Shown: positions 17,381 through 63,167 of the stretch, in pieces
How the letters are laid out: each line of letters starts with the position of its first letter
Numbering within the stretch: the stretch's first letter is position 1
Source: a virus
Direction: 5' to 3' (one strand)
DNA: 64,000 bases
IMG/VR virus record: IMGVR_UViG_3300037760_000114
Span: 32,001-96,000 of that record
Position numbers and translations under genes: made by a program
Notes under the pieces: generated by a model
Database searches by the model: none
What the model was told of the DNA's origin: nothing
The model's input: only the letters and a program-made list of their open reading frames with translations

Positions 17381-18062
17381 CGACTACGCCTCCCGCCGAG
17401 CCGGGCATCCACAGCGGCGACCAGCCGGATAGCCACGGACATGCCGGCAGCGATCACCACCGCCACAGCGGCGACCCGCAGCGCGGTCGGCTGCCCGGCC
17501 AGCGCTATGCGTACCACCTCCGCAGCGGCCACGATGACGCATGCGCAGATGGCGCTGAACCAGGCCAGCCGTAGCGGCCGTGGCCACCGCGACAGCCAGG
17601 CCGTGAAGCCCGCGGCGCGCAGGAACGGCGACGGCGGGTCGACCCGGGAAGGGCCGTAAGGCGGATGCGACCAACGGCGCCCGTCGGGCAGGGTGCCGCC
17701 GTACTCGCGCGGGTCGCCGTCGCCGAGCTCCGGTATGCGGCGGGTGCCGTCGTTGAGCCAGCGGCTGGCTGCCGCGTTCAGCGCAGGGTCAGGCTGCATG
17801 TGGACCACCACCGGAATGAACTGCACGCGCGGCGCGGATGTCCGGATCAGCGTCGAGCCGGGCCTGAGCCTCGCGGCGGATGTCCACCGGTAGCTCATCG
17901 AACGCCGCCTGATACCGGTGGCCGGTCAGCCTGCGGAGGATGTCCGGCGGGCAAGTGGCGAGCACGGTCGGGTGCAGGCTGCTGGCGATGTCCCGCAAGG
18001 TGACGGCGGCCATCAAAAGCTCGCTGGCCACGTCCACGATCGTGGCCCGATCAGTACCGGGG

Positions 18063-27640: not shown

Positions 27641-28701
27641 GTCGCCCCCTCTGCGGCGAGCTGGGCGCCGAGATCGAGCCAGCCCTGAACGCGGCTGTCG
27701 GTGGTGGACTGCCGCTGGTCGGGGCGTTTCTGGTGCCGCAGGGCGACCACCGTCCCGGGCTGCTCGGCGTCCGGCACGGCGGTGCTGATCTGGTGGATCA
27801 GCGACGGCAGCACACCGGGTCCGAGGTCGCCGCGTACCTGCCACAGCCGCAGCGCCTCGGCCACATCGGTTTCGGTGGTGCCGACCCGCAGCGCGTCGTG
27901 GACGTGCCGGGCGATCGCGTCTACCACGGCGGGCTGCGCTCTGCCGTTGGGCAGCGACGAGAGCCAGCCGGTGATGATCCGTTCGGCTGGTCCGGCTGGG
28001 TCGCTGTTGGGCGGCTCGCCAAGATCGCGGCCCCTACTACCGTTAGCTACGTACGCAGCTGTACCACCGGGGTTCGGGGAATCGGGGATAGGGGAATCAC
28101 TACTACTACTCCGTACCCTTCCCCTTTCCCCGTGGGCACCACGCGTGCCCTTCCCGGAAGGCACATCGGAACCCTTCCCGGAAGGGTTCCCCGAACGGTT
28201 GTCTTGACGGTTGTCTTGACGGTTGCTCGGTGGGTCTGGGTACCCATCTCCGATGGCTTGCAGCATCTCCGCGACGATCGCGGCGGACCTCTGGGTCATG
28301 TCCCCCGCCTCGGCGATCCGGCGCAGCTCAACGGCGAGTTCACTCAGGATCGGGCGGCTCTCGATCAGCGGCAGATGGTCTCGGGCAGCGCACAGGACGT
28401 TCGGCTGCCGGTACACCTTGTCGCGGCGCATGAACGACCGCACCAGCAACTCCTCGGTGTCTTCGTCGATCACCACGAACCGGCCGGCCACCAACTCCCC
28501 CAGCGCGGCCGTGACCACCTCGGGCGTCAGGTCGCGGGCACGTCGAGCCCAACGCTTGACCCGGAGGGCAATCACACCGGTGTGCGCCATGTCGCGCTGT
28601 GACAGCAGGAACATGAAGACCCGCTGCGCGTCGCCCGTGAGCGCAAGGAAGTCATCGTCGTCCCAGATGTCCACGGTGATCCGGGCCTCGCTACGCGCCA
28701 C
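27637..28701 (-). CDS. Phage replication initiator protein
   Basis: ARITVDIWDDDDFLALT...FLLSQ, ELLVRSFMRRD; contains internal direct repeats. Confidence 0.7.
   Translation of the reverse strand: MARSEARITVDIWDDDDFLALTGDAQRVFMFLLSQRDMAHTGVIALRVKRWARRARDLTPEVVTAALGELVAGRFVVIDEDTEELLVRSFMRRDKVYRQPNVLCAARDHLPLIESRPILSELAVELRRIAEAGDMTQRSAAIVAEMLQAIGDGYPDPPSNRQDNRQDNRSGNPSGKGSDVPSGKGTRGAHGERGRVRSSSSDSPIPDSPNPGGTAAYVANGSRGRDLGEPPNSDPAGPAERIITGWLSSLPNGRAQPAVVDAIARHVHDALRVGTTETDVAEALRLWQVRGDLGPGVLPSLIHQISTAVPDAEQPGTVVALRHQKRPDQRQSTTDSRVQGWLDLGAQLAAEGAT
28148..28225. repeat. Iteron-like repeats, putative replication origin
   Basis: CCCTTCCCGGAAGG x2 (28148, 28172); ACGGTTGTCTTG x2.5 (28195-28225). 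Confidence 0.55.
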
Positions 28702-56018: not shown

Positions 56019-56906
56019 GTGGACCCGAACGACATGCACCTCGCCTCCTACCGCCGGCACCTGCGGGCCAAGAACCGCAGCCCCACCACCATCGACGACT
56101 ACCGCGACGCCCTGACCCGCCTGGCCGCCCACTACAACGGCGCCGACCTGGCCGGGCTCGACAACCGGCAGATCGGCGACTACCTCGGCTGGATGCTCGA
56201 CTCCGGGCTCGCCGGCACCACCGTCGGAGTCCACTACCGGTCGCTGCGGGCCTTCTTCAACTGGGCGGTACGGGAGGAGATCATCGACCGGTCACCGATG
56301 CGGGGTATGGAGCATCCCAAGACGACCGACAAGCCGCCGGAGGTGGTGCCCGATGACGAGATCCGGGCGCTGCTGAAGACGTGCGCCGGGGCCACCTTTG
56401 AGGCCCGCCGCGACAATGCGATCATCCGCCTGTGGTGTGAACCCGGCTCGCCTAGGGTTTCGGAGATGGCCGGGCTCGACCTTGGCGATCTCGACCTGAA
56501 ACATGATCAGATCACGGTGCGGGGCAAGGGCGACAAGATCCGCACCGTGCCGTTCGGCGCCAGGACCGGCCAGGCCATCGACCGGTACCTGCGGGTCCGG
56601 GCCAAGCACCGCAGCGCCAAGCGGGACGAGTTGTGGCTCGGCAACCTTGGCGTGGGTCTGACCGCCTCGGGTCTGACGCAGATGCTGCGGCGCCGGTGCA
56701 AACGGGCCAGTGTGCCACACATGCATCCGCATCAGCTGCGGCACACCGCCGCCCACGCCTGGGCCGACGCCGGCGGCTCCGACCAGGACGCCATGCAGCT
56801 GTTCGGGTGGACCTCGCCGGAGATGCCCCGCCTGTACGGGCGGTCGGCCGGTGCCGAGCGGGCACGCCGTGCGGCTCGGCGTGCCTCGCTCGGCGACCGG
56901 TTCTAA
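56019..56906 (+). CDS. int: Tyrosine integrase
   Basis: PRVSE, GKGDK, HPHQLRHTA, FGW..PEMPRLY. Confidence 0.92.
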   Translation: MDPNDMHLASYRRHLRAKNRSPTTIDDYRDALTRLAAHYNGADLAGLDNRQIGDYLGWMLDSGLAGTTVGVHYRSLRAFFNWAVREEIIDRSPMRGMEHPKTTDKPPEVVPDDEIRALLKTCAGATFEARRDNAIIRLWCEPGSPRVSEMAGLDLGDLDLKHDQITVRGKGDKIRTVPFGARTGQAIDRYLRVRAKHRSAKRDELWLGNLGVGLTASGLTQMLRRRCKRASVPHMHPHQLRHTAAHAWADAGGSDQDAMQLFGWTSPEMPRLYGRSAGAERARRAARRASLGDRF

Positions 56907-57908: not shown

Positions 57909-59108
57909 TCATCCCTTGACGCACACGACCTGCTTGAGGTGCGCTACCACCTCGACCAGGTCCCGCTGCTCGGCCATCACCTGACCCAGGTCCTTGTACG
58001 CGGCGGGGATCTCGTCGACGACCCCGGCGTCCTTGCGGCACTCCACCCCGGCGGTCTGCTCGGCGAGGTCCTCCAGGGTGAAGCTGCGCTTGGCCTGACC
58101 GCGAGACATCCTGCGGCCAGCACCGTGCGACGCCGAGTTGTAGGCGTCCGGGTTACCCAACCCACGGACGACGTACGAGCCGGTGCCCATGCTGCCCGGG
58201 ATGATCCCCAGCTCTCCGACGCCCGCCCGGATCGCACCCTTGCGGGTCACCAGCAGCTCTACACCGCCGTACGTCTCCTCGGCCACGTAGTTGTGGTGGC
58301 ATGAGATCGGCTCGTCGAAGCTGACCTGCGGCAGGTGGTCACGGACCACGCCGCAGAGCAGGGCCAGCATGACCGCCCGGTTGCGGGCGGCGAACTCCTG
58401 CGCCCACGCGAGGTCACGCCGGTAGGCGTCCATCTCCGGGGTGCCGGCGACGAACACGGCCAAGTCCCGGTCCGGCAGGTCGGCGTTGTGCGGTAGCCCG
58501 CGGGCTACCGTGATGTGGCGCTCGGCAAGCTCCTTGCCGATGTTGCGGGAGCCGGAGTGCAGCATCAGCCACACCCGGCCCGCATCCGGCCCGCCCTGCT
58601 CGACGCAAAGTTCCGCAAAGTGGTTGCCGCCGCCAAGTGTTCCCATCTGGTGCTCGGCCCGACCCCGGAGCTTGCCCACATCGGCGCGCAGTTCGCCGAA
58701 CCGGGACCAGAACCCCACCCAGCCCTTGCCGTCGAGGCCGGGCACACGACGCGGGTCGACAGCCGACTCATGCGACTGGAACCCGACCGGGATCGCCTCC
58801 TCGATCGCCGCCCGTAGCCGGCCGAGGTCGTCCGGCAGGTCGCTGTCCGTCAGCGAGGTACGGACGCAGCTCATGCCGCAGCCGATGTCCACTCCGACCG
58901 CGGCCGGGGCCAACGCCTGCCGCATGGCGATCACCGACCCCACCGTCGCCCCCTTGCCGAAGTGCACATCGGGCATCACGGCGACACCCTCCACCCACGG
59001 CAGGTTGCCGATGTTGCGTAGCTGCTGCTGAGCCTGCGGCTCGATGCCGGCGGGGTCGGTCCACACCCGTACGGGTGCGCGGGTGCCGGGCAGGGTGGTG
59101 TGGGGCAT
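57909..59108 (-). CDS. rtcB: RtcB RNA 3'-phosphate/5'-OH ligase
   Basis: MPDVH.GKG, VGVDIGCG, GTLGGGNHF, HSGSR, CHHNY, PGSMG, SHGAGR, DEIP.AYK, VKG; SD AAGGAG. Confidence 0.95.
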   Translation of the reverse strand: MPHTTLPGTRAPVRVWTDPAGIEPQAQQQLRNIGNLPWVEGVAVMPDVHFGKGATVGSVIAMRQALAPAAVGVDIGCGMSCVRTSLTDSDLPDDLGRLRAAIEEAIPVGFQSHESAVDPRRVPGLDGKGWVGFWSRFGELRADVGKLRGRAEHQMGTLGGGNHFAELCVEQGGPDAGRVWLMLHSGSRNIGKELAERHITVARGLPHNADLPDRDLAVFVAGTPEMDAYRRDLAWAQEFAARNRAVMLALLCGVVRDHLPQVSFDEPISCHHNYVAEETYGGVELLVTRKGAIRAGVGELGIIPGSMGTGSYVVRGLGNPDAYNSASHGAGRRMSRGQAKRSFTLEDLAEQTAGVECRKDAGVVDEIPAAYKDLGQVMAEQRDLVEVVAHLKQVVCVKG

Positions 59109-59138
59109 GGCAGTGCTCCTTCGGTCGTCTGCCAAGAG

Positions 59139-59208: not shown

Positions 59209-59232
59209 TGGTCCACACAGTGGATGGCATCG

Positions 59233-59303
59233 AGATCGCGGCCGGACTCGAACCGGCGTCTACCGCTTTGCAGGCGGTCCCCTGACCACTCGGGCACGCG
59301 ATC
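59233..59303 (-). tRNA. tRNA-Cys(GCA)
   Basis: Cloverleaf, loop CTGCAAA. Confidence 0.85.
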
Positions 59304-59308
59304 TTGTG

Positions 59309-59381
59309 TGTCCCCGGCTGGGTTCGAACCAGCGACCTCGGCCTTCGGAGGGCCGCGCGCTTCCGGCTGCGCCACGAGGAC
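59309..59381 (-). tRNA. tRNA-Arg(CCG)
   Basis: Loop CTCCGAA. Confidence 0.85.
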
Positions 59382-59382
59382 A

Positions 59383-59469
59383 TGGTGCGGGTAGAGAGAT
59401 TCGAACTCCCTGAGCGCATGCGCACCGGGGTTACAGCCCGGCTCACCTCACCATCGGTGACGTACCCGC
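59383..59469 (-). tRNA. tRNA-Tyr(GTA)
   Basis: Loop CTGTAAC, long variable arm, CCA. Confidence 0.85.
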
Positions 59470-59470
59470 T

Positions 59471-59544
59471 TGGGGTGACTGGCCGGAGTTGAACCGGCAT
59501 GTCCAGGGCCACAACCTGGCGCTCTACCATTGAGCTACAGCCAC
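59471..59544 (-). tRNA. tRNA-His(GTG)
   Basis: Loop TTGTGGC, C73, CCA. Confidence 0.85.
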
Positions 59545-59546
59545 AG

Positions 59547-59618
59547 TGCCCGGTGGAGGTGTCGAACCTCCGGCCTTCTGCTTGTAAGGCAGACGCTCTC
59601 CCGTTGAGCTAACCGGGC
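59547..59618 (-). tRNA. tRNA-Val(TAC)
   Basis: Loop CTTACAA. Confidence 0.85.
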
Positions 59619-59623
59619 ATGGG

Positions 59624-59697
59624 TGCGCCGCCTGGGGATCGAACCCAGCGCGGCCAGTTGATAAGACTGGTCTCACCGACCAGGTGAGCTGCGGCGC
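59624..59697 (-). tRNA. tRNA-Ile(TAT)
   Basis: Loop CTTATCA in stem CCAGT/ACTGG. Confidence 0.7.
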
Positions 59698-59700
59698 ATC

Positions 59701-59784
59701 TGGCGGAGGGGGCGGGATTCGAACCCGCGAGGGTGTGACCCCTACGCCGCTTCCAACGGCGTTCCCGTGACCGCCGGCCCCTCC
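59701..59784 (-). tRNA. tRNA-Ser(GGA), reduced D arm
   Basis: Loop TTGGAAG, long variable arm, GCCA. Confidence 0.75.
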
Positions 59785-59785
59785 A

Positions 59786-59859
59786 TGGCTCTCCCGGCTG
59801 GACTCGAACCAACATCGGCGGAGTAACAATCCGCTGTCCTACCATTGAACGACGGGAGA
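59786..59859 (-). tRNA. tRNA-Asn(GTT)
   Basis: Loop TTGTTAC, GCCA. Confidence 0.85.
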
Positions 59860-59863
59860 TCGG

Positions 59864-59937
59864 TAGCGCCGACGGGGCTCGAACCCGCACCGTCTGGATT
59901 GAAAGTCCAGGGACCTGACCGATTAGTCTACGGCGCC
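59864..59937 (-). tRNA. tRNA-Glu(TTC)
   Basis: Loop CTTTCAA. Confidence 0.85.
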
Positions 59938-59942
59938 TTGCG

Positions 59943-60016
59943 TGTTCCGACCTGGGTTCGAACCAGGGGCCTCCACCGTGTCGAGGTGGTGCTCTACCGG
60001 GCTGAGCTACCGGAAC
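59943..60016 (-). tRNA. tRNA-Val(GAC)
   Basis: Loop TCGACAC. Confidence 0.8.
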
Positions 60017-60017
60017 G

Positions 60018-60091
60018 TAGCGGGTGCCGGAATCGAACCGACCTGTCTCGGGTTATGAGCCCGTTGAGCACAACCAGTGCTCCTACCCGCA
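60018..60091 (-). tRNA. tRNA-fMet(CAT), initiator type
   Basis: GGG-CTCATAA-CCC; 1:72 mismatch. Confidence 0.8.
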
Positions 60092-60092
60092 G

Positions 60093-60164
60093 TGCGCCGC
60101 CGAGGAATCGAACCCCGGACACTCCGCTTAAAAGGCGGCAGCTCTACCACTGAGCTAGCGGCGC
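60093..60164 (-). tRNA. tRNA-Lys(TTT)
   Basis: Loop CTTTTAA. Confidence 0.85.
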
Positions 60165-60170
60165 ATGAGC

Positions 60171-60327
60171 GGCGGTGGAGTAGGCGTGTGGCGACGCCTC
60201 GTTCTTAAGCCGCAGACCAAGCGCCGTTCTCCGCCTCGCCTTCTTAGGGGCGACACATCACCCAGCTCCGGTCCTGCCAGCACGTTTAGGAGACCTGCCC
60301 TGGTACCCGGTTGCGGCCTCCACCGCC
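60171..60327 (-). ncRNA. Unknown 157-nt structured RNA
   Basis: 10-bp closing stem GGCGGTGGAG/CTCCACCGCC with nested helices; fills a slot between tRNAs. Confidence 0.55.
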
Positions 60328-60330
60328 GAG

Positions 60331-60402
60331 CCTCCCGCCCCCGATTCGAACGGGGACACCCGCTGTAGGAGAGCGGTGCTCTGTCCGTTGAGCTAGCGGG
60401 AG
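60331..60402 (-). tRNA. tRNA-Arg(CCT)
   Basis: Loop CTCCTAC. Confidence 0.8.
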
Positions 60403-60403
60403 A

Positions 60404-60476
60404 TGGTGCGGCGCCCGAGAGTTGAACTCGGCCCGCTGGCCTTAGAAGGGCCGGCTGCGCATCCGGCGCGCGCCGC
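60404..60476 (-). tRNA. tRNA-Arg(TCT), atypical fold
   Basis: Loop CTTCTAA, ACCA; D stem abuts the acceptor stem. Confidence 0.7.
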
Positions 60477-60479
60477 ATG

Positions 60480-60553
60480 TGGTACGCCGTGAAGGAATCG
60501 AACCTTCGTCCTCGGGGTAAGAGCCCGGAGCTAAACCACTCAGCTAACGGCGC
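60480..60553 (-). tRNA. tRNA-Lys(CTT)
   Basis: Loop CTCTTAC, ACCA. Confidence 0.85.
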
Positions 60554-60554
60554 G

Positions 60555-60638
60555 TGGAGGAGGGTAAGGGAGTCGAACTCTCGGGTGTCACCCCGGCACG
60601 GTTTTCGGGACCGCTTTGCCACCATGGCGCTACCCTCC
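60555..60638 (-). tRNA. tRNA-Ser(CGA)
   Basis: Loop CCCGAAA, long variable arm, CCA. Confidence 0.75.
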
Positions 60639-60643
60639 ATGAG

Positions 60644-60717
60644 TCGGGTGCGGGCGATTTGAACGCCCGGCCTCCGCGTCCCGAACGCGGCGCTCCACCT
60701 AGCTGAGCTAGCACCCG
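60644..60717 (-). tRNA. tRNA-Pro(CGG)
   Basis: Loop TTCGGGA. Confidence 0.85.
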
Positions 60718-60722
60718 TTGCG

Positions 60723-60796
60723 TACCCCCGACAGGACTCGAACCTGCCGCCTCCTGGTTCGTAGCCAGGTGCTCTATCCAGATGAGCTACGGGGGC
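60723..60796 (-). tRNA. tRNA-Arg(ACG)
   Basis: Loop CTACGAA. Confidence 0.85.
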
Positions 60797-60797
60797 A

Positions 60798-60873
60798 TGG
60801 TGGGCCACCCAGGAGTTGAACCTGGCGATGCCGACATATCAGATCGGTCTCGTCACCGGCTGAGTCGTGACCC
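60798..60873 (-). tRNA. tRNA-Ile(GAT)
   Basis: Loop CTGATAT, ACCA. Confidence 0.8.
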
Positions 60874-60874
60874 G

Positions 60875-60956
60875 TGGTGGACCATCCCGGAGTCGAACCG
60901 GGTTCCGCTGCCGTACCGTCATGCGGTCTTCGGCAGCGTCGAAACCTTCATGGCCC
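60875..60956 (-). ncRNA. Minimal tmRNA tRNA-like domain lacking the mRNA domain
   Basis: GGGCCAT-GAAGGTTTCGAC-GCTGCCG...CGGCAGC-GGAA-CCCGG TTCGACT CCGGG-ATGGTCC-ACCA; G3.U70; no D stem. Confidence 0.75.
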
Positions 60957-60960
60957 TCGG

Positions 60961-61045
60961 CGGACAGTGAGGGATTCGAACCCCCGGTGGTTTCCCACTC
61001 CGCGCTAGCAACGCGGCGCCTTAAGCCGGGCTCGGCCAACTGTCC
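60961..61045 (-). tRNA. tRNA-Ser(GCT)
   Basis: Loop TTGCTAG, long variable arm. Confidence 0.85.
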
Positions 61046-61046
61046 T

Positions 61047-61131
61047 TGGGCGTTCGGCCTCTCCTACGACCCCCAACGGGATCGCGCACCCACATGGGGC
61101 TGCGATTGCAGCGCCTATCCCATAGCCGAAC
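61047..61131 (-). ncRNA. Unknown ~85-nt structured RNA
   Basis: Closing stem GTTCGGC/GCCGAAC, internal hairpins, no T-loop consensus. Confidence 0.4.
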
Positions 61132-61147
61132 TAGTGGGTCCCTAGCG

Positions 61148-61221
61148 CGCCTCGTACGGGACTCGAACCCGTGCATCTCCTCCTTGACAGGGAGGCGTCC
61201 ACTCCACTGGACCGACGAGGC
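61148..61221 (-). tRNA. tRNA-Asp(GTC)
   Basis: Loop CTGTCAA. Confidence 0.85.
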
Positions 61222-61226
61222 ATACG

Positions 61227-61300
61227 TACCCGGGACACGATTCGAACGTGCACTGTGCTGGTTCTAAGCCAGCCGCCTCCTGCCGTTGGGCTACCCGGGC
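61227..61300 (-). tRNA. tRNA-Leu(TAG), short variable loop
   Basis: Loop CTTAGAA. Confidence 0.8.
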
Positions 61301-61301
61301 A

Positions 61302-61377
61302 TGGTGGAGAAGAGCGGACTCGAACCGCTTGCCTCCGCTTTGCAAGAGCGGCGCTCTACCTGATGAGCTACATCCCC
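61302..61377 (-). tRNA. tRNA-Ala(TGC)
   Basis: Loop CTTGCAA, G3.U70, ACCA. Confidence 0.85.
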
Positions 61378-61378
61378 G

Positions 61379-61454
61379 TGGAGCCGGTGACGCGGATCGA
61401 ACGCGCTCCCTCCTGCGTACGAAGCAGGCGCACTACCTTCAGTGCTTCACCGGC
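61379..61454 (-). tRNA. tRNA-Thr(CGT)
   Basis: Loop TTCGTAC, CCA. Confidence 0.85.
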
Positions 61455-61455
61455 A

Positions 61456-61590
61456 GGGTAGGCCGCCCGGACTTGAACCGGGCATCTCCCGCTGCCCGCC
61501 CTCTGGCGGGACTCGCCCGGTGCTCCATCGGGTTCCCTAGGCTCCGATGGTCTTAGGCGGCAGGCGACTTGCCGTTAGTCGATTGGCCCA
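61456..61590 (-). ncRNA. tRNA-like RNA with a 67-nt structured insert in place of the anticodon loop
   Basis: D arm GACT-AACGGCA-AGTC, stem CCTGC/GCGGG, T arm CCCGG TTCAAGT CCGGG; insert 61493-61559. Confidence 0.6.
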
Positions 61591-61594
61591 CGTA

Positions 61595-61663
61595 AGCCGG
61601 CGGCGCGAGTCGAACGCGCGGCTGCCGCCTTACAAGGGCGGTGCACCACCGTGGCTCGCCGGC
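61595..61663 (-). tRNA. tRNA-Thr(TGT), reduced D arm
   Basis: Loop CTTGTAA. Confidence 0.75.
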
Positions 61664-61667
61664 ATCG

Positions 61668-61740
61668 CTGGGAGCCCAGGATTCGAACCTGAACCGACGG
61701 TTTCAGAGACCGCCGTGCTGCCGGATTACACCAGCTCCCA
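61668..61740 (-). tRNA. tRNA-Gln(CTG)
   Basis: Loop CTCTGAA. Confidence 0.85.
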
Positions 61741-61775
61741 ATGACCCGGCCGGGCCTAGTCATCCCGGCCGGGGT

Positions 61776-62228
61776 TCAGCGCGAGGTCACCGACGCCCAC
61801 GACGGGGCAGCCGGCCTGACCCGCAGCACCATGCCCGCCTCGGCGGGGGTGCGGTCACCCTTGCGCTGGTTGCACGGCCCGCACGCGGCGACCGTGTTGC
61901 GCCAGGTGTTCCGGCCGCCGCGGGCACGCGGGACGATGTGGTCAACGGTGCTGGCCGTGGCCGGGCAGTAGCCGCAGCGGCGCTGGTCGCGGGCGAGCAC
62001 ACCAGTCCGGGACCAGGCGGGGCCGGCGGTGTACCGCCACTTCGTGACCACGTAGTTGACCAGCCGCAGCACCCTCGGCACAGGCCAGACTCCGATGATC
62101 CGGTCCGGTTCACCTTCGTGGACCACTGCGACCTGCCGGACGAGCATCCGGATCGCGTGCCGGAAGGACACCCGGTGCAGCGGGCCAAGATCAGCGTTCA
62201 AGACGAGTACGGCGTCCACCGGGTTCAC
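61776..62228 (-). CDS. HNH endonuclease inside the tRNA array
   Basis: VLVLNAD..PL, RDQRRCGYC, TVDHIVPRARGG..TWRNTVAACGPCNQRKG; SD AGGAGG. Confidence 0.9.
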   Translation of the reverse strand: MNPVDAVLVLNADLGPLHRVSFRHAIRMLVRQVAVVHEGEPDRIIGVWPVPRVLRLVNYVVTKWRYTAGPAWSRTGVLARDQRRCGYCPATASTVDHIVPRARGGRNTWRNTVAACGPCNQRKGDRTPAEAGMVLRVRPAAPSWASVTSR

Positions 62229-62247
62229 CTCCTGTCGTGGTGGGCGC

Positions 62248-62321
62248 TGGAGCGGCTACGGGGAATCGAACCCCGGTCTGCTGCATGGCAAGCAGCCGCA
62301 CTGCCGTTGTGCTACAGCCGC
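62248..62321 (-). tRNA. tRNA-Gly(GCC)
   Basis: Loop TTGCCAT, TCCA. Confidence 0.85.
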
Positions 62322-62326
62322 ATGAG

Positions 62327-62400
62327 AGCCATCGGCGCGATTCGAACGCGCGGCCTTCCGCTTACCGGGCGGACGCTCTAACCACCTGAGCTACGACGGC
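62327..62400 (-). tRNA. tRNA-Thr(GGT)
   Basis: Loop CCGGTAA. Confidence 0.8.
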
Positions 62401-62401
62401 G

Positions 62402-62478
62402 TGGTACTCCGGGTGCGATTCGAACGCACACTGTGCGCGGTTTGAACGCGCCGCCTCCTGCCGTTGGGCTACCGGAGC
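62402..62478 (-). tRNA. tRNA-Leu(CAA), short variable loop
   Basis: Loop TTCAAAC, ACCA. Confidence 0.8.
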
Positions 62479-62483
62479 ACGAG

Positions 62484-62554
62484 CTGAGGGCGGAGGATTC
62501 GAACCCCCACAGCTGGGACCAAAACCCAGCGACCTGCCGTTAGTCGAGCCCTCA
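62484..62554 (-). tRNA. tRNA-Gln(TTG)
   Basis: Loop TTTTGGT. Confidence 0.85.
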
Positions 62555-62559
62555 ACGAG

Positions 62560-62631
62560 AGCGAGCGGCGGGAGTCGAACCCGCTACGTCTGTTTGGAAG
62601 ACAGAAGTGTCACCACCAACACCTCGCTCGC
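62560..62631 (-). tRNA. tRNA-Gly(TCC)
   Basis: Loop CTTCCAA. Confidence 0.85.
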
Positions 62632-62636
62632 ATGAG

Positions 62637-62710
62637 TAGGCCGTACGGGGCTCGAACCCGTAACCTCTGCGCTGAGAACGCAGTGAGCTGCCAGCTTGCT
62701 CCAACGGCCC
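62637..62710 (-). tRNA. tRNA-Glu(CTC)
   Basis: Loop TTCTCAG. Confidence 0.85.
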
Positions 62711-62713
62711 AAG

Positions 62714-62774
62714 GGCGCCGGGCAGGGTGTGTACCCCTGCGCTGTCCGGACACTGCATCAGCACTTCCGGCGCC
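62714..62774 (-). ncRNA. 61-nt anticodon-less tRNA-shaped RNA
   Basis: GGCGCCGG/CCGGCGCC stem stacked on the GCAGGG-GTACACA-CCCTGC hairpin. Confidence 0.4.
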
Positions 62775-62776
62775 AG

Positions 62777-62849
62777 TGCTCGTGGCCGGGATCGAACCGG
62801 CGGCCTCCGGGACTTCACGCCGGCGCTCAACCTGCTGAGCTTCACGAGC
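62777..62849 (-). tRNA. tRNA-Phe(GAA)
   Basis: Loop GTGAAGT; 31:39 mismatch. Confidence 0.7.
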
Positions 62850-62850
62850 A

Positions 62851-62925
62851 TGGTGGACCACAAGGGGATCGAACCCTTCACAGAGTGTCTGCCAGACGCT
62901 CCCGCACACCAGTGACGTGCGGCCC
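62851..62925 (-). tRNA. tRNA-Ala(GGC)
   Basis: Loop CTGGCAG, G3.U70, ACCA. Confidence 0.75.
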
Positions 62926-62930
62926 ATGAG

Positions 62931-63003
62931 TCGGGAACCGGGGAGTCGAACCCCGCACTTCCTGCTCCCAAGGCAGGCCCGGTCACCGCGCCGGTCGCCC
63001 CCG
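62931..63003 (-). tRNA. tRNA-Pro(TGG)
   Basis: Loop CTTGGGA. Confidence 0.75.
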
Positions 63004-63092
63004 ATGCCCCGGCGCGACGATGCGCGCCGGGTCTCATGCCATCCACTGTGCAGATATCAACTTCCGATCCCACCGGCCGTAGCCGGGAGAAG

Positions 63093-63167
63093 CAGGGGCG
63101 ACAGGATTCGAACCTGCGGCTTGCGGGTTTGGAGTCCGCTGCTCTGACCGTGCTGAGCTACACCCCT
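63093..63167 (-). tRNA. tRNA-Trp(CCA)
   Basis: Loop CTCCAAA. Confidence 0.85.

What the first reader, a model, noticed from the sequence alone, without database searches (positions are those of the whole stretch)
60875..60956. 82-nt mini-tmRNA: alanine-acceptor tRNA-like domain with no tag ORF or pseudoknots
Seen: G3.U70, A73, encoded CCA, the tmRNA-type stemless D loop GAAGGTTTCGAC, a P2-like helix, a GGAA linker and a T arm; a 17-nt hairpin replaces the entire mRNA-like domain. Known: these are AlaRS/SmpB determinants, and tag-less tmRNAs are known from some protist mitochondria. Inference: an SmpB decoy that blocks trans-translation, or a tag-free ribosome rescue RNA that spares phage proteins from degradation.
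Basis: partly seen in the sequence, partly recalled or inferred. Interest (0 to 1): 0.8.

Follow-up and report, generated by a model that had tools for sequence, protein, structure and literature searches.

The report
Phage tag-less mini-tmRNA gene
An 82-base gene inside this phage's cluster of 34 tRNA genes encodes only the alanine-accepting, tRNA-like head of the bacterial ribosome-rescue RNA (tmRNA). One such phage RNA, from mycobacteriophage DS6A, is already published and blocks the host's rescue system, so this is a new member of a known kind that is far more widespread than the literature shows.

Summary
Window 60875-60956 (minus strand) is an 82-nt RNA gene with a 7-bp acceptor stem (G3.U70, A73, encoded CCA) and the stemless tmRNA D-loop. 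It also has a 7-bp P2 helix capped by a 17-nt stub, a GGAA linker and a T arm. It has no tag frame and no pseudoknots.

Rfam's tmRNA model matches it end to end, skipping 294 positions (37.8-46.4 bits; cut-off 47). ARAGORN does not call it.

It is not a one-off deletion. It belongs to a family recovered on 106 of 120 IMG/VR pattern hits, with 74 distinct sequences in the 88-match alignment. In that alignment 96% of cells are paired, 18 of 22 pairs show compensatory changes, and G1-C72, G2-C71 and G3.U70 never vary. The same pattern in bacterial genomes gave 3 of 119.

My model also finds the published 'TLD only' tmRNA of mycobacteriophage DS6A (56 bits), which is reported to inhibit tmRNA in E. 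coli. The kind is therefore known.

The phage encodes no SmpB, ArfB or Pth, so the RNA must use host factors. It most likely competes with host tmRNA. Tag-free rescue remains possible.

This scan has already noted the same family many times on other DNA.

The parts
60875..60956 (-). Whole mini-tmRNA gene (82 nt including the encoded CCA).
   Evidence: Sequence; fold; RF00023 global match; own model R1 81.3 bits, E 2.5e-19.
60950..60956 (-). Acceptor stem, 5' strand (nt 1-7, GGGCCAU), with G3 of the G3.U70 pair.
   Evidence: G1-C72, G2-C71 and G3.U70 are invariant in 74 of 74 distinct family members.
60938..60949 (-). Stemless D-loop (nt 8-19, GAAGGUUUCGAC), the tmRNA-type SmpB-contact region.
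   Evidence: Aligned to the conserved GGaUUCGAC of RF00023. GGUUUCGAC is invariant in alignment A2, though it was part of the search pattern.
60931..60937 (-). P2 helix, 5' strand (nt 20-26).
   Evidence: Pairs with 60907-60913. All 7 pairs of this helix show compensatory changes across the family.
60914..60930 (-). 17-nt cap (nt 27-43): an A-rich internal loop, a 4-bp stub and the loop CAUGA. It stands where the mRNA-like domain and pseudoknots would be.
   Evidence: 294 model positions skipped. The same GAAA..CCGC..GCGG motif occurs in DS6A and most relatives.
60907..60913 (-). P2 helix, 3' strand (nt 44-50).
60903..60906 (-). GGAA linker (GGAC in most relatives and in tmRNA).
60886..60902 (-). 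T arm (nt 55-71): 5-bp stem with loop UUCGACU.
   Evidence: The T stem is 100% paired, with 4 of 5 pairs covarying.
60879..60885 (-). Acceptor stem, 3' strand (nt 72-78, AUGGUCC), with U70.
60875..60878 (-). Discriminator A followed by the encoded CCA.
   Evidence: A is invariant in the family. CCA is encoded in only 25 of 84 distinct relatives and in about a third of this array's tRNAs.
60959..61045 (-). Upstream neighbour tRNA-Ser(gct), 2 nt before the mini-tmRNA.
60798..60873 (-). Downstream neighbour tRNA-Ile(gat), 1 nt after the CCA.
59232..63167 (-). The tRNA array (33 of the window's 34 ARAGORN tRNAs) that contains the gene. Co-transcription and tRNA-type processing are presumed.
   Evidence: No promoter-like or convincing terminator-like site lies inside it.

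Best explanation
This is a genuine gene for a tRNA-like-domain-only (tag-less) tmRNA, homologous to the published 'TLD only' tmRNA of mycobacteriophage DS6A. It is probably transcribed with the tRNA array and cut out like a tRNA (inferred from the 1-2 nt spacers). It would then be charged with alanine by the host AlaRS through G3.U70 and A73, and bound by host SmpB through its tmRNA-type D-loop and GGAA linker (inferred from conserved determinants). With no resume codon or tag frame it cannot complete trans-translation. It therefore acts as a competitor of the host tmRNA: it captures SmpB, and as Ala-RNA.SmpB.EF-Tu probably also occupies stalled ribosomes. The result would be that nascent (phage) proteins are not ssrA-tagged and the SmpB-tmRNA-dependent decay of non-stop mRNAs is blunted. 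Shown here: the RNA's identity, its family and selection on its structure. Published for the DS6A homologue: inhibition of tmRNA in E. coli. Inferred: charging, SmpB binding and any benefit to this phage.
For: RF00023 aligns end to end with only the central 294 positions missing. R1 is a model built from 39 IMG/VR relatives plus the window element; DS6A was not in the seed. It scores this element at 81.3 bits and independently finds DS6A 28478-28557 at 56.4 bits, E 1.7e-13. DS6A has the same inner motif. Family covariation: 74 distinct sequences, 96.2% of cells paired, 18 of 22 pairs with double-sided changes, and 0 of 500 shuffles reach the observed values; slid controls give 38-52% paired. 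G1-C72, G2-C71, G3.U70 and A73 are invariant while pairs 4-7 vary freely. The family is virus-specific: 106 of 120 IMG/VR pattern hits pass the model against 3 of 119 in bacterial genomes. There is no SmpB in this genome or in 47 other mini-bearing virus records, and none of those has a full-length tmRNA. The RNA must therefore work with, or against, host factors. [quoted passage not shown] The deformed D-arm is the SmpB contact and G3.U70 is the AlaRS determinant (PMC3985003).
Against: According to PMC4131195, inhibition in E. coli did not require a chargeable RNA. Yet the alanine identity set is invariant in the family, which a pure SmpB sponge does not explain. That points to a role on the ribosome whose outcome (block or rescue) is unknown. 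The window element falls just below Rfam's curated tmRNA cut-off (46.4 against 47 bits). The host is unknown, so compatibility with its SmpB is assumed.
Confidence: 0.65

Rival explanations
1. Productive tag-free ribosome rescue. Ala-mini-tmRNA.SmpB.EF-Tu enters ribosomes stalled on broken mRNAs and accepts the nascent chain. The peptidyl-RNA is then released (drop-off, then host Pth or an ArfB-type factor). Ribosomes are recycled and the proteins receive one alanine rather than a degradation tag.
For: The alanine identity set (G3.U70, A73) is invariant in 74 of 74 distinct members, although charging is reportedly not needed for mere inhibition. CDS-less tmRNAs kept together with SmpB in jakobid mitochondria and some plastids are thought to remain useful (PMC11915505). 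The element sits beside a large tRNA array and an RtcB RNA-repair ligase, which fits a phage that faces RNA-cleaving defences producing stalled ribosomes.
Against: No release mechanism is encoded: this genome has no RF-1/ArfB domain and no Pth. There is no conserved micro-ORF or stop codon in the hairpin; GCN..stop occurs in 21 of 74 members against 21.3 +/- 4.0 in shuffles. The only experiment on a homologue reports inhibition, not rescue. RtcB is not a family-level partner: it occurs in 1 of 47 records, and none of 27 RtcB loci has a mini-tmRNA.
Confidence: 0.25
2. A non-ribosomal role for an alanine-accepting tRNA mimic. It could be a decoy for host nucleases that target tRNA or tmRNA, an alanine donor for cell-envelope aminoacyl-transferases, or merely a processing signal (RNase P / RNase Z punctuation) in the array transcript.
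For: The gene is packed like a tRNA in the array. Phage tRNA arrays are discussed as anti-defence devices (PMC12803027 abstract).
Against: The conserved non-acceptor features are specifically tmRNA-type (GGUUUCGAC D-loop, GGAC linker, P2 helix with an A-rich internal loop), and the tmRNA model outscored all other models of the tRNA clan. 63 of 83 distinct relatives stand alone with no tRNA in their locus, so array punctuation cannot be the family's function.
Confidence: 0.07
3. A non-functional relic: a decayed ssrA copy, a degenerate tRNA-Ala, or an attP fragment of a tmRNA gene used for integration by the nearby tyrosine integrase.
For: A tyrosine integrase lies 4 kb away (window 56019-56906). 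Phages that integrate into ssrA do carry its 3' end; Arthrobacter phages Eileen, Judy and RootBeer match only nt 46-82.
Against: Both halves of the tRNA-like domain are present and covary with each other across 74 sequences. No stretch longer than about 39 nt matches any of 401 sampled Actinomycetes genomes. The 5' end (12-13 of 19 nt) and the 3' end (20 of 31 nt) are poorly identical to four actinobacterial tmRNAs. ARAGORN finds no anticodon arm. Overlapping ORFs have no Pfam match.
Confidence: 0.03

Closest known systems
'TLD only' (CDS-less) tmRNA of mycobacteriophage DS6A (tmRNA Website tmID 11587; Mao et al. 2009 as cited in PMC4131195 and PMC11915505)
   Same: About 80 nt, with the same order of parts: G3.U70 acceptor, stemless D-loop, P2 helix, A-rich internal loop plus a CCGC..GCGG stub, linker, T arm and A73. 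It is found by my model at 56.4 bits. Both phages are actinophages and both encode an integrase and an RtcB ligase.
   Different: DS6A's gene stands alone between gp33 and the DNA pol III gene, is not in a tRNA array, and has no encoded CCA (ACUA). Its D-loop reads GGUGGUCGAC rather than GGUUUCGAC. The stems differ in sequence.
Canonical bacterial tmRNA / SsrA (Rfam RF00023)
   Same: The tRNA-like domain is the same: acceptor with G3.U70 and A73, D-loop GGnUUCGAC, GGAC-type linker, T arm, and the first helix (P2a) with its A-rich internal loop.
   Different: It lacks the resume codon, tag reading frame, stop codon and all pseudoknots (294 of 374 model positions). It is 82 nt against about 370 nt.
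CDS-less organellar tmRNAs (jakobid mitochondria; ~65-bp Mallomonadaceae plastid genes; PMC11915505)
   Same: They are natural tmRNA derivatives reduced to the tRNA-like domain and depend on an SmpB encoded elsewhere.
   Different: They are organellar and vertically inherited, and are thought to serve their own translation system. This one is viral and would act on a host's system. I made no direct comparison with the mitochondrial model beyond Rfam's clan competition.
Engineered TLD fragments used for SmpB co-crystals (for example PDB 2CZJ: the 5' 25 and 3' 34 residues joined by a UUCG loop; PMC3985003)
   Same: The design is the same: both TLD halves and the start of helix 2 closed by a small loop. 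This shows such an RNA folds and binds SmpB.
   Different: They are laboratory constructs from Thermus tmRNA that lack CCA. The natural RNA keeps a longer helix and a conserved internal loop.
tRNA-Ala
   Same: G3.U70, A73 and CCA, hence the same expected synthetase. The phage also carries tRNA-Ala(tgc) at 61302-61377.
   Different: It has no D stem and no anticodon arm. ARAGORN does not call it, and the tRNA model is outscored by the tmRNA model.

Membership tests
tmRNA (SsrA; Rfam RF00023) | 7-bp acceptor stem with G3.U70, discriminator A73 and a CCA end. | tested here: met
   Sequence and fold; alignment to the model.
tmRNA (SsrA; Rfam RF00023) | D-loop without a D stem carrying GGnUUCGAC, a GGAC-type linker and a canonical T arm. 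| tested here: met
   alignment. The linker is GGAA here and GGAC in most relatives.
tmRNA (SsrA; Rfam RF00023) | mRNA-like domain: resume codon, tag reading frame and stop codon. | tested here: not met
   Only 17 nt lie beyond helix P2. There is no conserved GCN..stop in the family, 21 of 74 against 21.3 +/- 4.0 in shuffles. The GCA-UGA in this loop is idiosyncratic.
tmRNA (SsrA; Rfam RF00023) | Pseudoknots PK1-PK4. | tested here: not met
   294 model positions are skipped.
tmRNA (SsrA; Rfam RF00023) | Score at or above Rfam's gathering cut-off (47 bits). | tested here: not met
   46.4 bits and 37.8 bits. 44 of 47 relatives do exceed it, at 50-81 bits and all 63-89 nt long.
tmRNA (SsrA; Rfam RF00023) | Partner SmpB in the same genome. 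| tested here: not met
   PF01668 is absent from this complete genome and from 47 other mini-bearing records. Host SmpB is assumed.
Phage TLD-only (CDS-less) tmRNA, type DS6A | Homology and shared architecture with the DS6A element. | tested here: met
   Model R1, built without DS6A, finds DS6A 28478-28557 at 56.4 bits and the window element at 81.3 bits. They share the inner motif.
Phage TLD-only (CDS-less) tmRNA, type DS6A | Structure under selection (not a recent deletion product). | tested here: met
   18 of 22 pairs have compensatory changes, 96.2% of cells are paired, and the controls are far lower. No near-identical ssrA was found in 401 Actinomycetes genomes.
Phage TLD-only (CDS-less) tmRNA, type DS6A | Inhibits endogenous trans-translation. 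| not testable with these tools
   Reported only for DS6A or a similar molecule in E. coli (PMC4131195, PMC11915505). I could not read the primary paper, Mao et al. 2009.
Canonical tRNA (tRNA-Ala) | Cloverleaf with a D stem and an anticodon arm. | tested here: not met
   No ARAGORN call. The fold shows a single long hairpin between the D-loop and the T arm.
attP fragment of ssrA | Only the 3' part of tmRNA, identical to the host attB. | tested here: not met
   The 5' half is present and covaries. The longest match in 401 Actinomycetes genomes is about 39 nt at 83% identity, or 30 nt at 93%.

The most novel reading that the evidence does not exclude
The RNA may not be a passive SmpB sponge. It could be a charged, ribosome-entering rescue RNA. 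Phages would then carry a minimal third mode of ribosome rescue: the nascent chain is transferred to Ala-mini-tmRNA and released without a degradation tag. That would recycle ribosomes stalled by host RNA-cleaving defences while sparing phage proteins. The invariant alanine identity set across 74 distinct sequences is what this reading explains better than simple SmpB titration does.
Probability: 0.25. Interest if true: 0.75.

Novelty: new member of a known kind. Interest (0 to 1): 0.5.

Why it matters
Trans-translation is the main ribosome-rescue and protein-tagging pathway of bacteria and a drug target. The papers I could read give one phage example of a tag-less tmRNA (DS6A). This element, and the more than 100 relatives recovered with it, show that phages of many sizes (32-194 kb among the near-complete genomes, contig GC 29-69%) carry such an RNA, usually as their only tRNA-like gene. 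ARAGORN misses them: it called only 2 of 83 relatives. If the RNA blocks or re-routes host ribosome rescue, it is a widespread RNA-based way for phages to take control of host translation quality control. The invariant alanine identity gives a direct test of whether it acts as a sponge or on the ribosome. Cultured carriers exist (Streptomyces phages LuckySocke and GiJojo).

Tried and rejected
1. Hidden micro-ORF. The loop reads GCA-UGA (Ala-stop) here. Across 74 members, however, a GCN followed by an in-frame stop inside the hairpin is no more frequent than in shuffles (21 against 21.3 +/- 4.0). Rejected.

2. Functional link to RtcB. RtcB lies next to this array, and DS6A also has one. Only 1 of 47 mini-bearing virus records has RtcB, and none of 27 IMG/VR loci around RtcB relatives has a mini-tmRNA. 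Rejected as a family feature.

3. Link to tRNA arrays. Only 15 of 83 distinct relatives lie within 300 nt of a tRNA, and 63 have none in their locus. The array setting is a minority context.

4. Phage-encoded partners. There is no SmpB, no RF-1/ArfB domain and no Pth in this genome.

5. Close relatives of this phage. An exact 24-mer from the element found nothing in viral or genome collections. Six-frame comparison of all fetched loci with the whole genome found only scattered common phage genes: endonuclease VII, an integrase and a helicase-methylase. Lineage-specific synteny could therefore not be assessed.

6. Host identification through ssrA. Four actinobacterial tmRNAs are only 12-13 of 19 nt and 20 of 31 nt identical at the ends. 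401 Actinomycetes genomes gave only short T-arm matches.

7. Expression. Consensus promoter and terminator scans found nothing useful.

8. The primary paper, Mao et al. 2009, is not held in the library. Its result is cited second-hand.

9. The first MAFFT alignment (A1) misplaced the 5' stem because D-loop lengths differ. I replaced it with a length-homogeneous seed (A2) and a model-based alignment (A3).

Full report
**What is there.** The window is bases 32001-96000 of a complete 104,084-bp IMG/VR virus genome with direct terminal repeats. GC content is about 64-73%. ARAGORN finds 34 tRNA genes on the minus strand, 33 of them in one array at 59232-63167, and no tmRNA. The 82 nt at 60875-60956 fill the gap between tRNA-Ser(gct) and tRNA-Ile(gat), with spacers of 2 and 1 nt, the same packing as elsewhere in the array.

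Read on the minus strand, the parts are:
- a 7-bp acceptor stem with G3.U70;
- a 12-nt D-loop ending GGUUUCGAC, with no D stem;
- a 7-bp helix;
- 17 nt that form an A-rich internal loop and a 4-bp stub with a 5-nt loop;
- GGAA;
- a 5-bp T stem with loop UUCGACU;
- the 3' acceptor strand, then A and CCA.

The minimum-energy fold is exactly this structure: -39.6 kcal/mol, z = -3.2.

**Is it tmRNA-like beyond chance?** Rfam's tmRNA model (RF00023) aligns to the element globally, positions 1-374, skipping 294 central positions. It outscored the other models of the tRNA clan at 37.8 bits, E 1.8e-14. In the whole-genome search it scores 46.4 bits, E 1.2e-18, just under the curated cut-off of 47. With default filters on longer stretches Rfam reports nothing here. 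ORFs overlapping the element have no Pfam match.

**It is one of a large family.** A BLAST search of cultured phages found the same element in Streptomyces phages LuckySocke (unannotated) and GiJojo (under a 'hypothetical protein'), at 77% identity.

- Nearly all hits show the full architecture at 63-85 nt, with GGG....UCC-A acceptor ends that the pattern did not demand.
- They give 84 distinct sequences from contigs of 29-69% GC.
- Covariance model R1, built from 39 of them, scores the window element at 81.3 bits. It confirms 106 of the 120 IMG/VR loci.
- On the model-based alignment of 74 distinct sequences, 96.2% of cells are paired and 18 of 22 pairs have changes on both sides. None of 500 shuffles reaches the observed values, and slid controls give 38-52% paired (seed alignment).
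- G1-C72, G2-C71 and G3.U70 never vary, while pairs 4-7, the P2 helix and the T stem covary freely.

Only three of those pass the model, one of them strongly. The rest are chance matches inside genes. The family is therefore real, under selection for structure, and characteristic of viruses.

**It is already a known kind.** Hudson, Lau and Williams (2014, PMC4131195) list 'Mycobacterium phage DS6A (TLD only)'. [quoted passage not shown] 2009. The 2025 tmRNA database paper (PMC11915505) repeats that the DS6A form inhibits endogenous tmRNA in E. coli. It also lists CDS-less forms in jakobid mitochondria and two plastids.

My model, built without DS6A, finds that element at JN698994 28478-28557 (56.4 bits, E 1.7e-13). 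It is unannotated, lying between gp33 and the DNA pol III gene. It has the same inner GAAAA-CCGC..GCGG motif as the window's element. The window element is therefore a new member of the DS6A-type family. In four literature searches I found no report of the family's breadth. This scan's own notebook shows that the same family has been noted many times on other DNA.

**Context and partners.**
- The complete phage genome has no SmpB, no RF-1/ArfB domain and no Pth.
- None of 47 other mini-bearing virus records has SmpB or a full-length tmRNA. Their best RF00023 hits are all 63-89 nt, and 44 of 47 are above the cut-off.
- An RtcB ligase follows the array (57909-59135) and DS6A also has one. RtcB occurs in only 1 of the 47 records, and none of 27 loci around RtcB relatives has a mini-tmRNA. 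I drop that link.
- Only 15 of 83 distinct relatives lie within 300 nt of a tRNA, and 63 have no tRNA in their locus. The array setting seen here is the exception.
- ARAGORN misses 81 of the 83.

**Not a fresh deletion or an attP.**
- Four actinobacterial tmRNAs share only 12-13 of the first 19 nt and 20 of the last 31 nt with the element.
- Those tmRNAs do show the same layout just after the GAC: a short helix followed by an A-rich internal loop. The mini-tmRNA thus keeps helix 2a and the start of 2b.
- 401 genomes sampled across the Actinomycetes gave no match longer than about 39 nt.
- Phages that merely carry the 3' end of ssrA, as expected for an attP, look different: Arthrobacter phages Eileen and Judy match only nt 46-82 and have no 5' half.

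**How it most likely works.** Established knowledge supplies three points. G3.U70 is the AlaRS determinant. The deformed D-arm of the TLD is the SmpB contact. A TLD fragment closed by a small loop folds and binds SmpB (PMC3985003).

I therefore infer the following. The RNA is cut out of the array transcript like a tRNA, charged with alanine by the host AlaRS, and bound by host SmpB. Lacking a resume codon, it cannot finish trans-translation, so it competes with host tmRNA. The published inhibition by the DS6A-type molecule supports this.

One observation goes beyond a passive sponge. Charging is reportedly unnecessary for inhibition in E. coli, yet the alanine identity set is invariant in all 74 distinct sequences. 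That suggests the charged RNA enters the ribosome with EF-Tu. Whether it then blocks the ribosome or allows release of an untagged chain cannot be decided here. I tested and rejected a hidden micro-ORF: GCA-UGA in this loop is not conserved, and GCN..stop occurs at the shuffled rate.

**Verdict.** Novelty is a new member of a known kind. Interest is moderate. It is not surprising as a single case, but it is part of a widespread, poorly annotated phage RNA family whose mechanism is directly testable.

Noticed in passing
window 60403-60479 (-): A 77-nt gap in the array folds as a full cloverleaf with anticodon loop CUUCUAA (UCU, Arg) and an ACCA end. ARAGORN and Rfam at gathering threshold both missed it. 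It is probably a tRNA-Arg(tct) gene.
   Followed up: partly
window 60554-60642 (-): An 89-nt gap holds a tRNA-like fold with a long variable arm and anticodon loop CCCGAAA (CGA, Ser). The only Rfam hit is the tRNA-Sec model at 29.9 bits, below its cut-off.
   Followed up: partly
window 62850-62929 (-): A second RNA with G3.U70, A73 and an encoded CCA. It may be a tRNA-Ala(GGC) with a mismatched anticodon stem and a poor D arm. ARAGORN did not call it, and mini-tmRNA model R1 did not hit it.
   Followed up: partly
window 61455-61594 (-): A 140-nt stretch with a 7-bp acceptor stem, a D-arm-like hairpin and a good T arm, but about 65 extra nt where the anticodon and variable region should be. MFE is -65.8 kcal/mol, z = -2.0. 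It is unexplained.
   Followed up: no
window 62711-62775 (-): A 65-nt fold with an 8-bp terminal stem and a 6-bp hairpin (z = -2.3). It resembles a tRNA top half without a T-loop motif. It may be related to the tRNA-elbow mimics noted elsewhere in this genome (note e1-5978203).
   Followed up: no
window 61776-62228 (-): An HNH endonuclease gene (PF14279 / PF01844) sits inside the tRNA array.
   Followed up: no
window 57909-59135 (-) and 56019-56906 (+): An RtcB RNA ligase (409 bits) lies directly after the array. A tyrosine integrase lies about 1 kb further on, which suggests a temperate lifestyle.
   Followed up: partly
L008 1565-1637 and 5111-5183; L072 5-81 and 1317-1392: Two IMG/VR contigs each carry two mini-tmRNA copies.
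   Followed up: no
L236 / L267 (genome G006, contig C294, 869-939): In a 1.8-Mb MAG the best 'tmRNA' hit above Rfam's cut-off (62.9 bits) is a 71-nt mini-tmRNA on a 2.4-kb contig. Only a fragment of the real tmRNA lies on another contig. Such phage elements could be mis-scored as a genome's ssrA.
   Followed up: no
PP725410 (Streptomyces phage GiJojo) 17032-17091; OR725497 (LuckySocke) 17977-18054; JN698994 (DS6A) 28478-28557: In cultured-phage GenBank records the mini-tmRNA is either unannotated (LuckySocke, DS6A) or covered by a 'hypothetical protein' CDS (GiJojo).
   Followed up: partly
L014 (Arthrobacter phage Eileen) about 1501-1537: Arthrobacter phages Eileen, Judy and RootBeer carry only a tmRNA-like 3' end (T arm plus acceptor 3' strand plus CCA) in an intergenic region. 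This looks like an attP core for integration into ssrA rather than a mini-tmRNA.
   Followed up: partly
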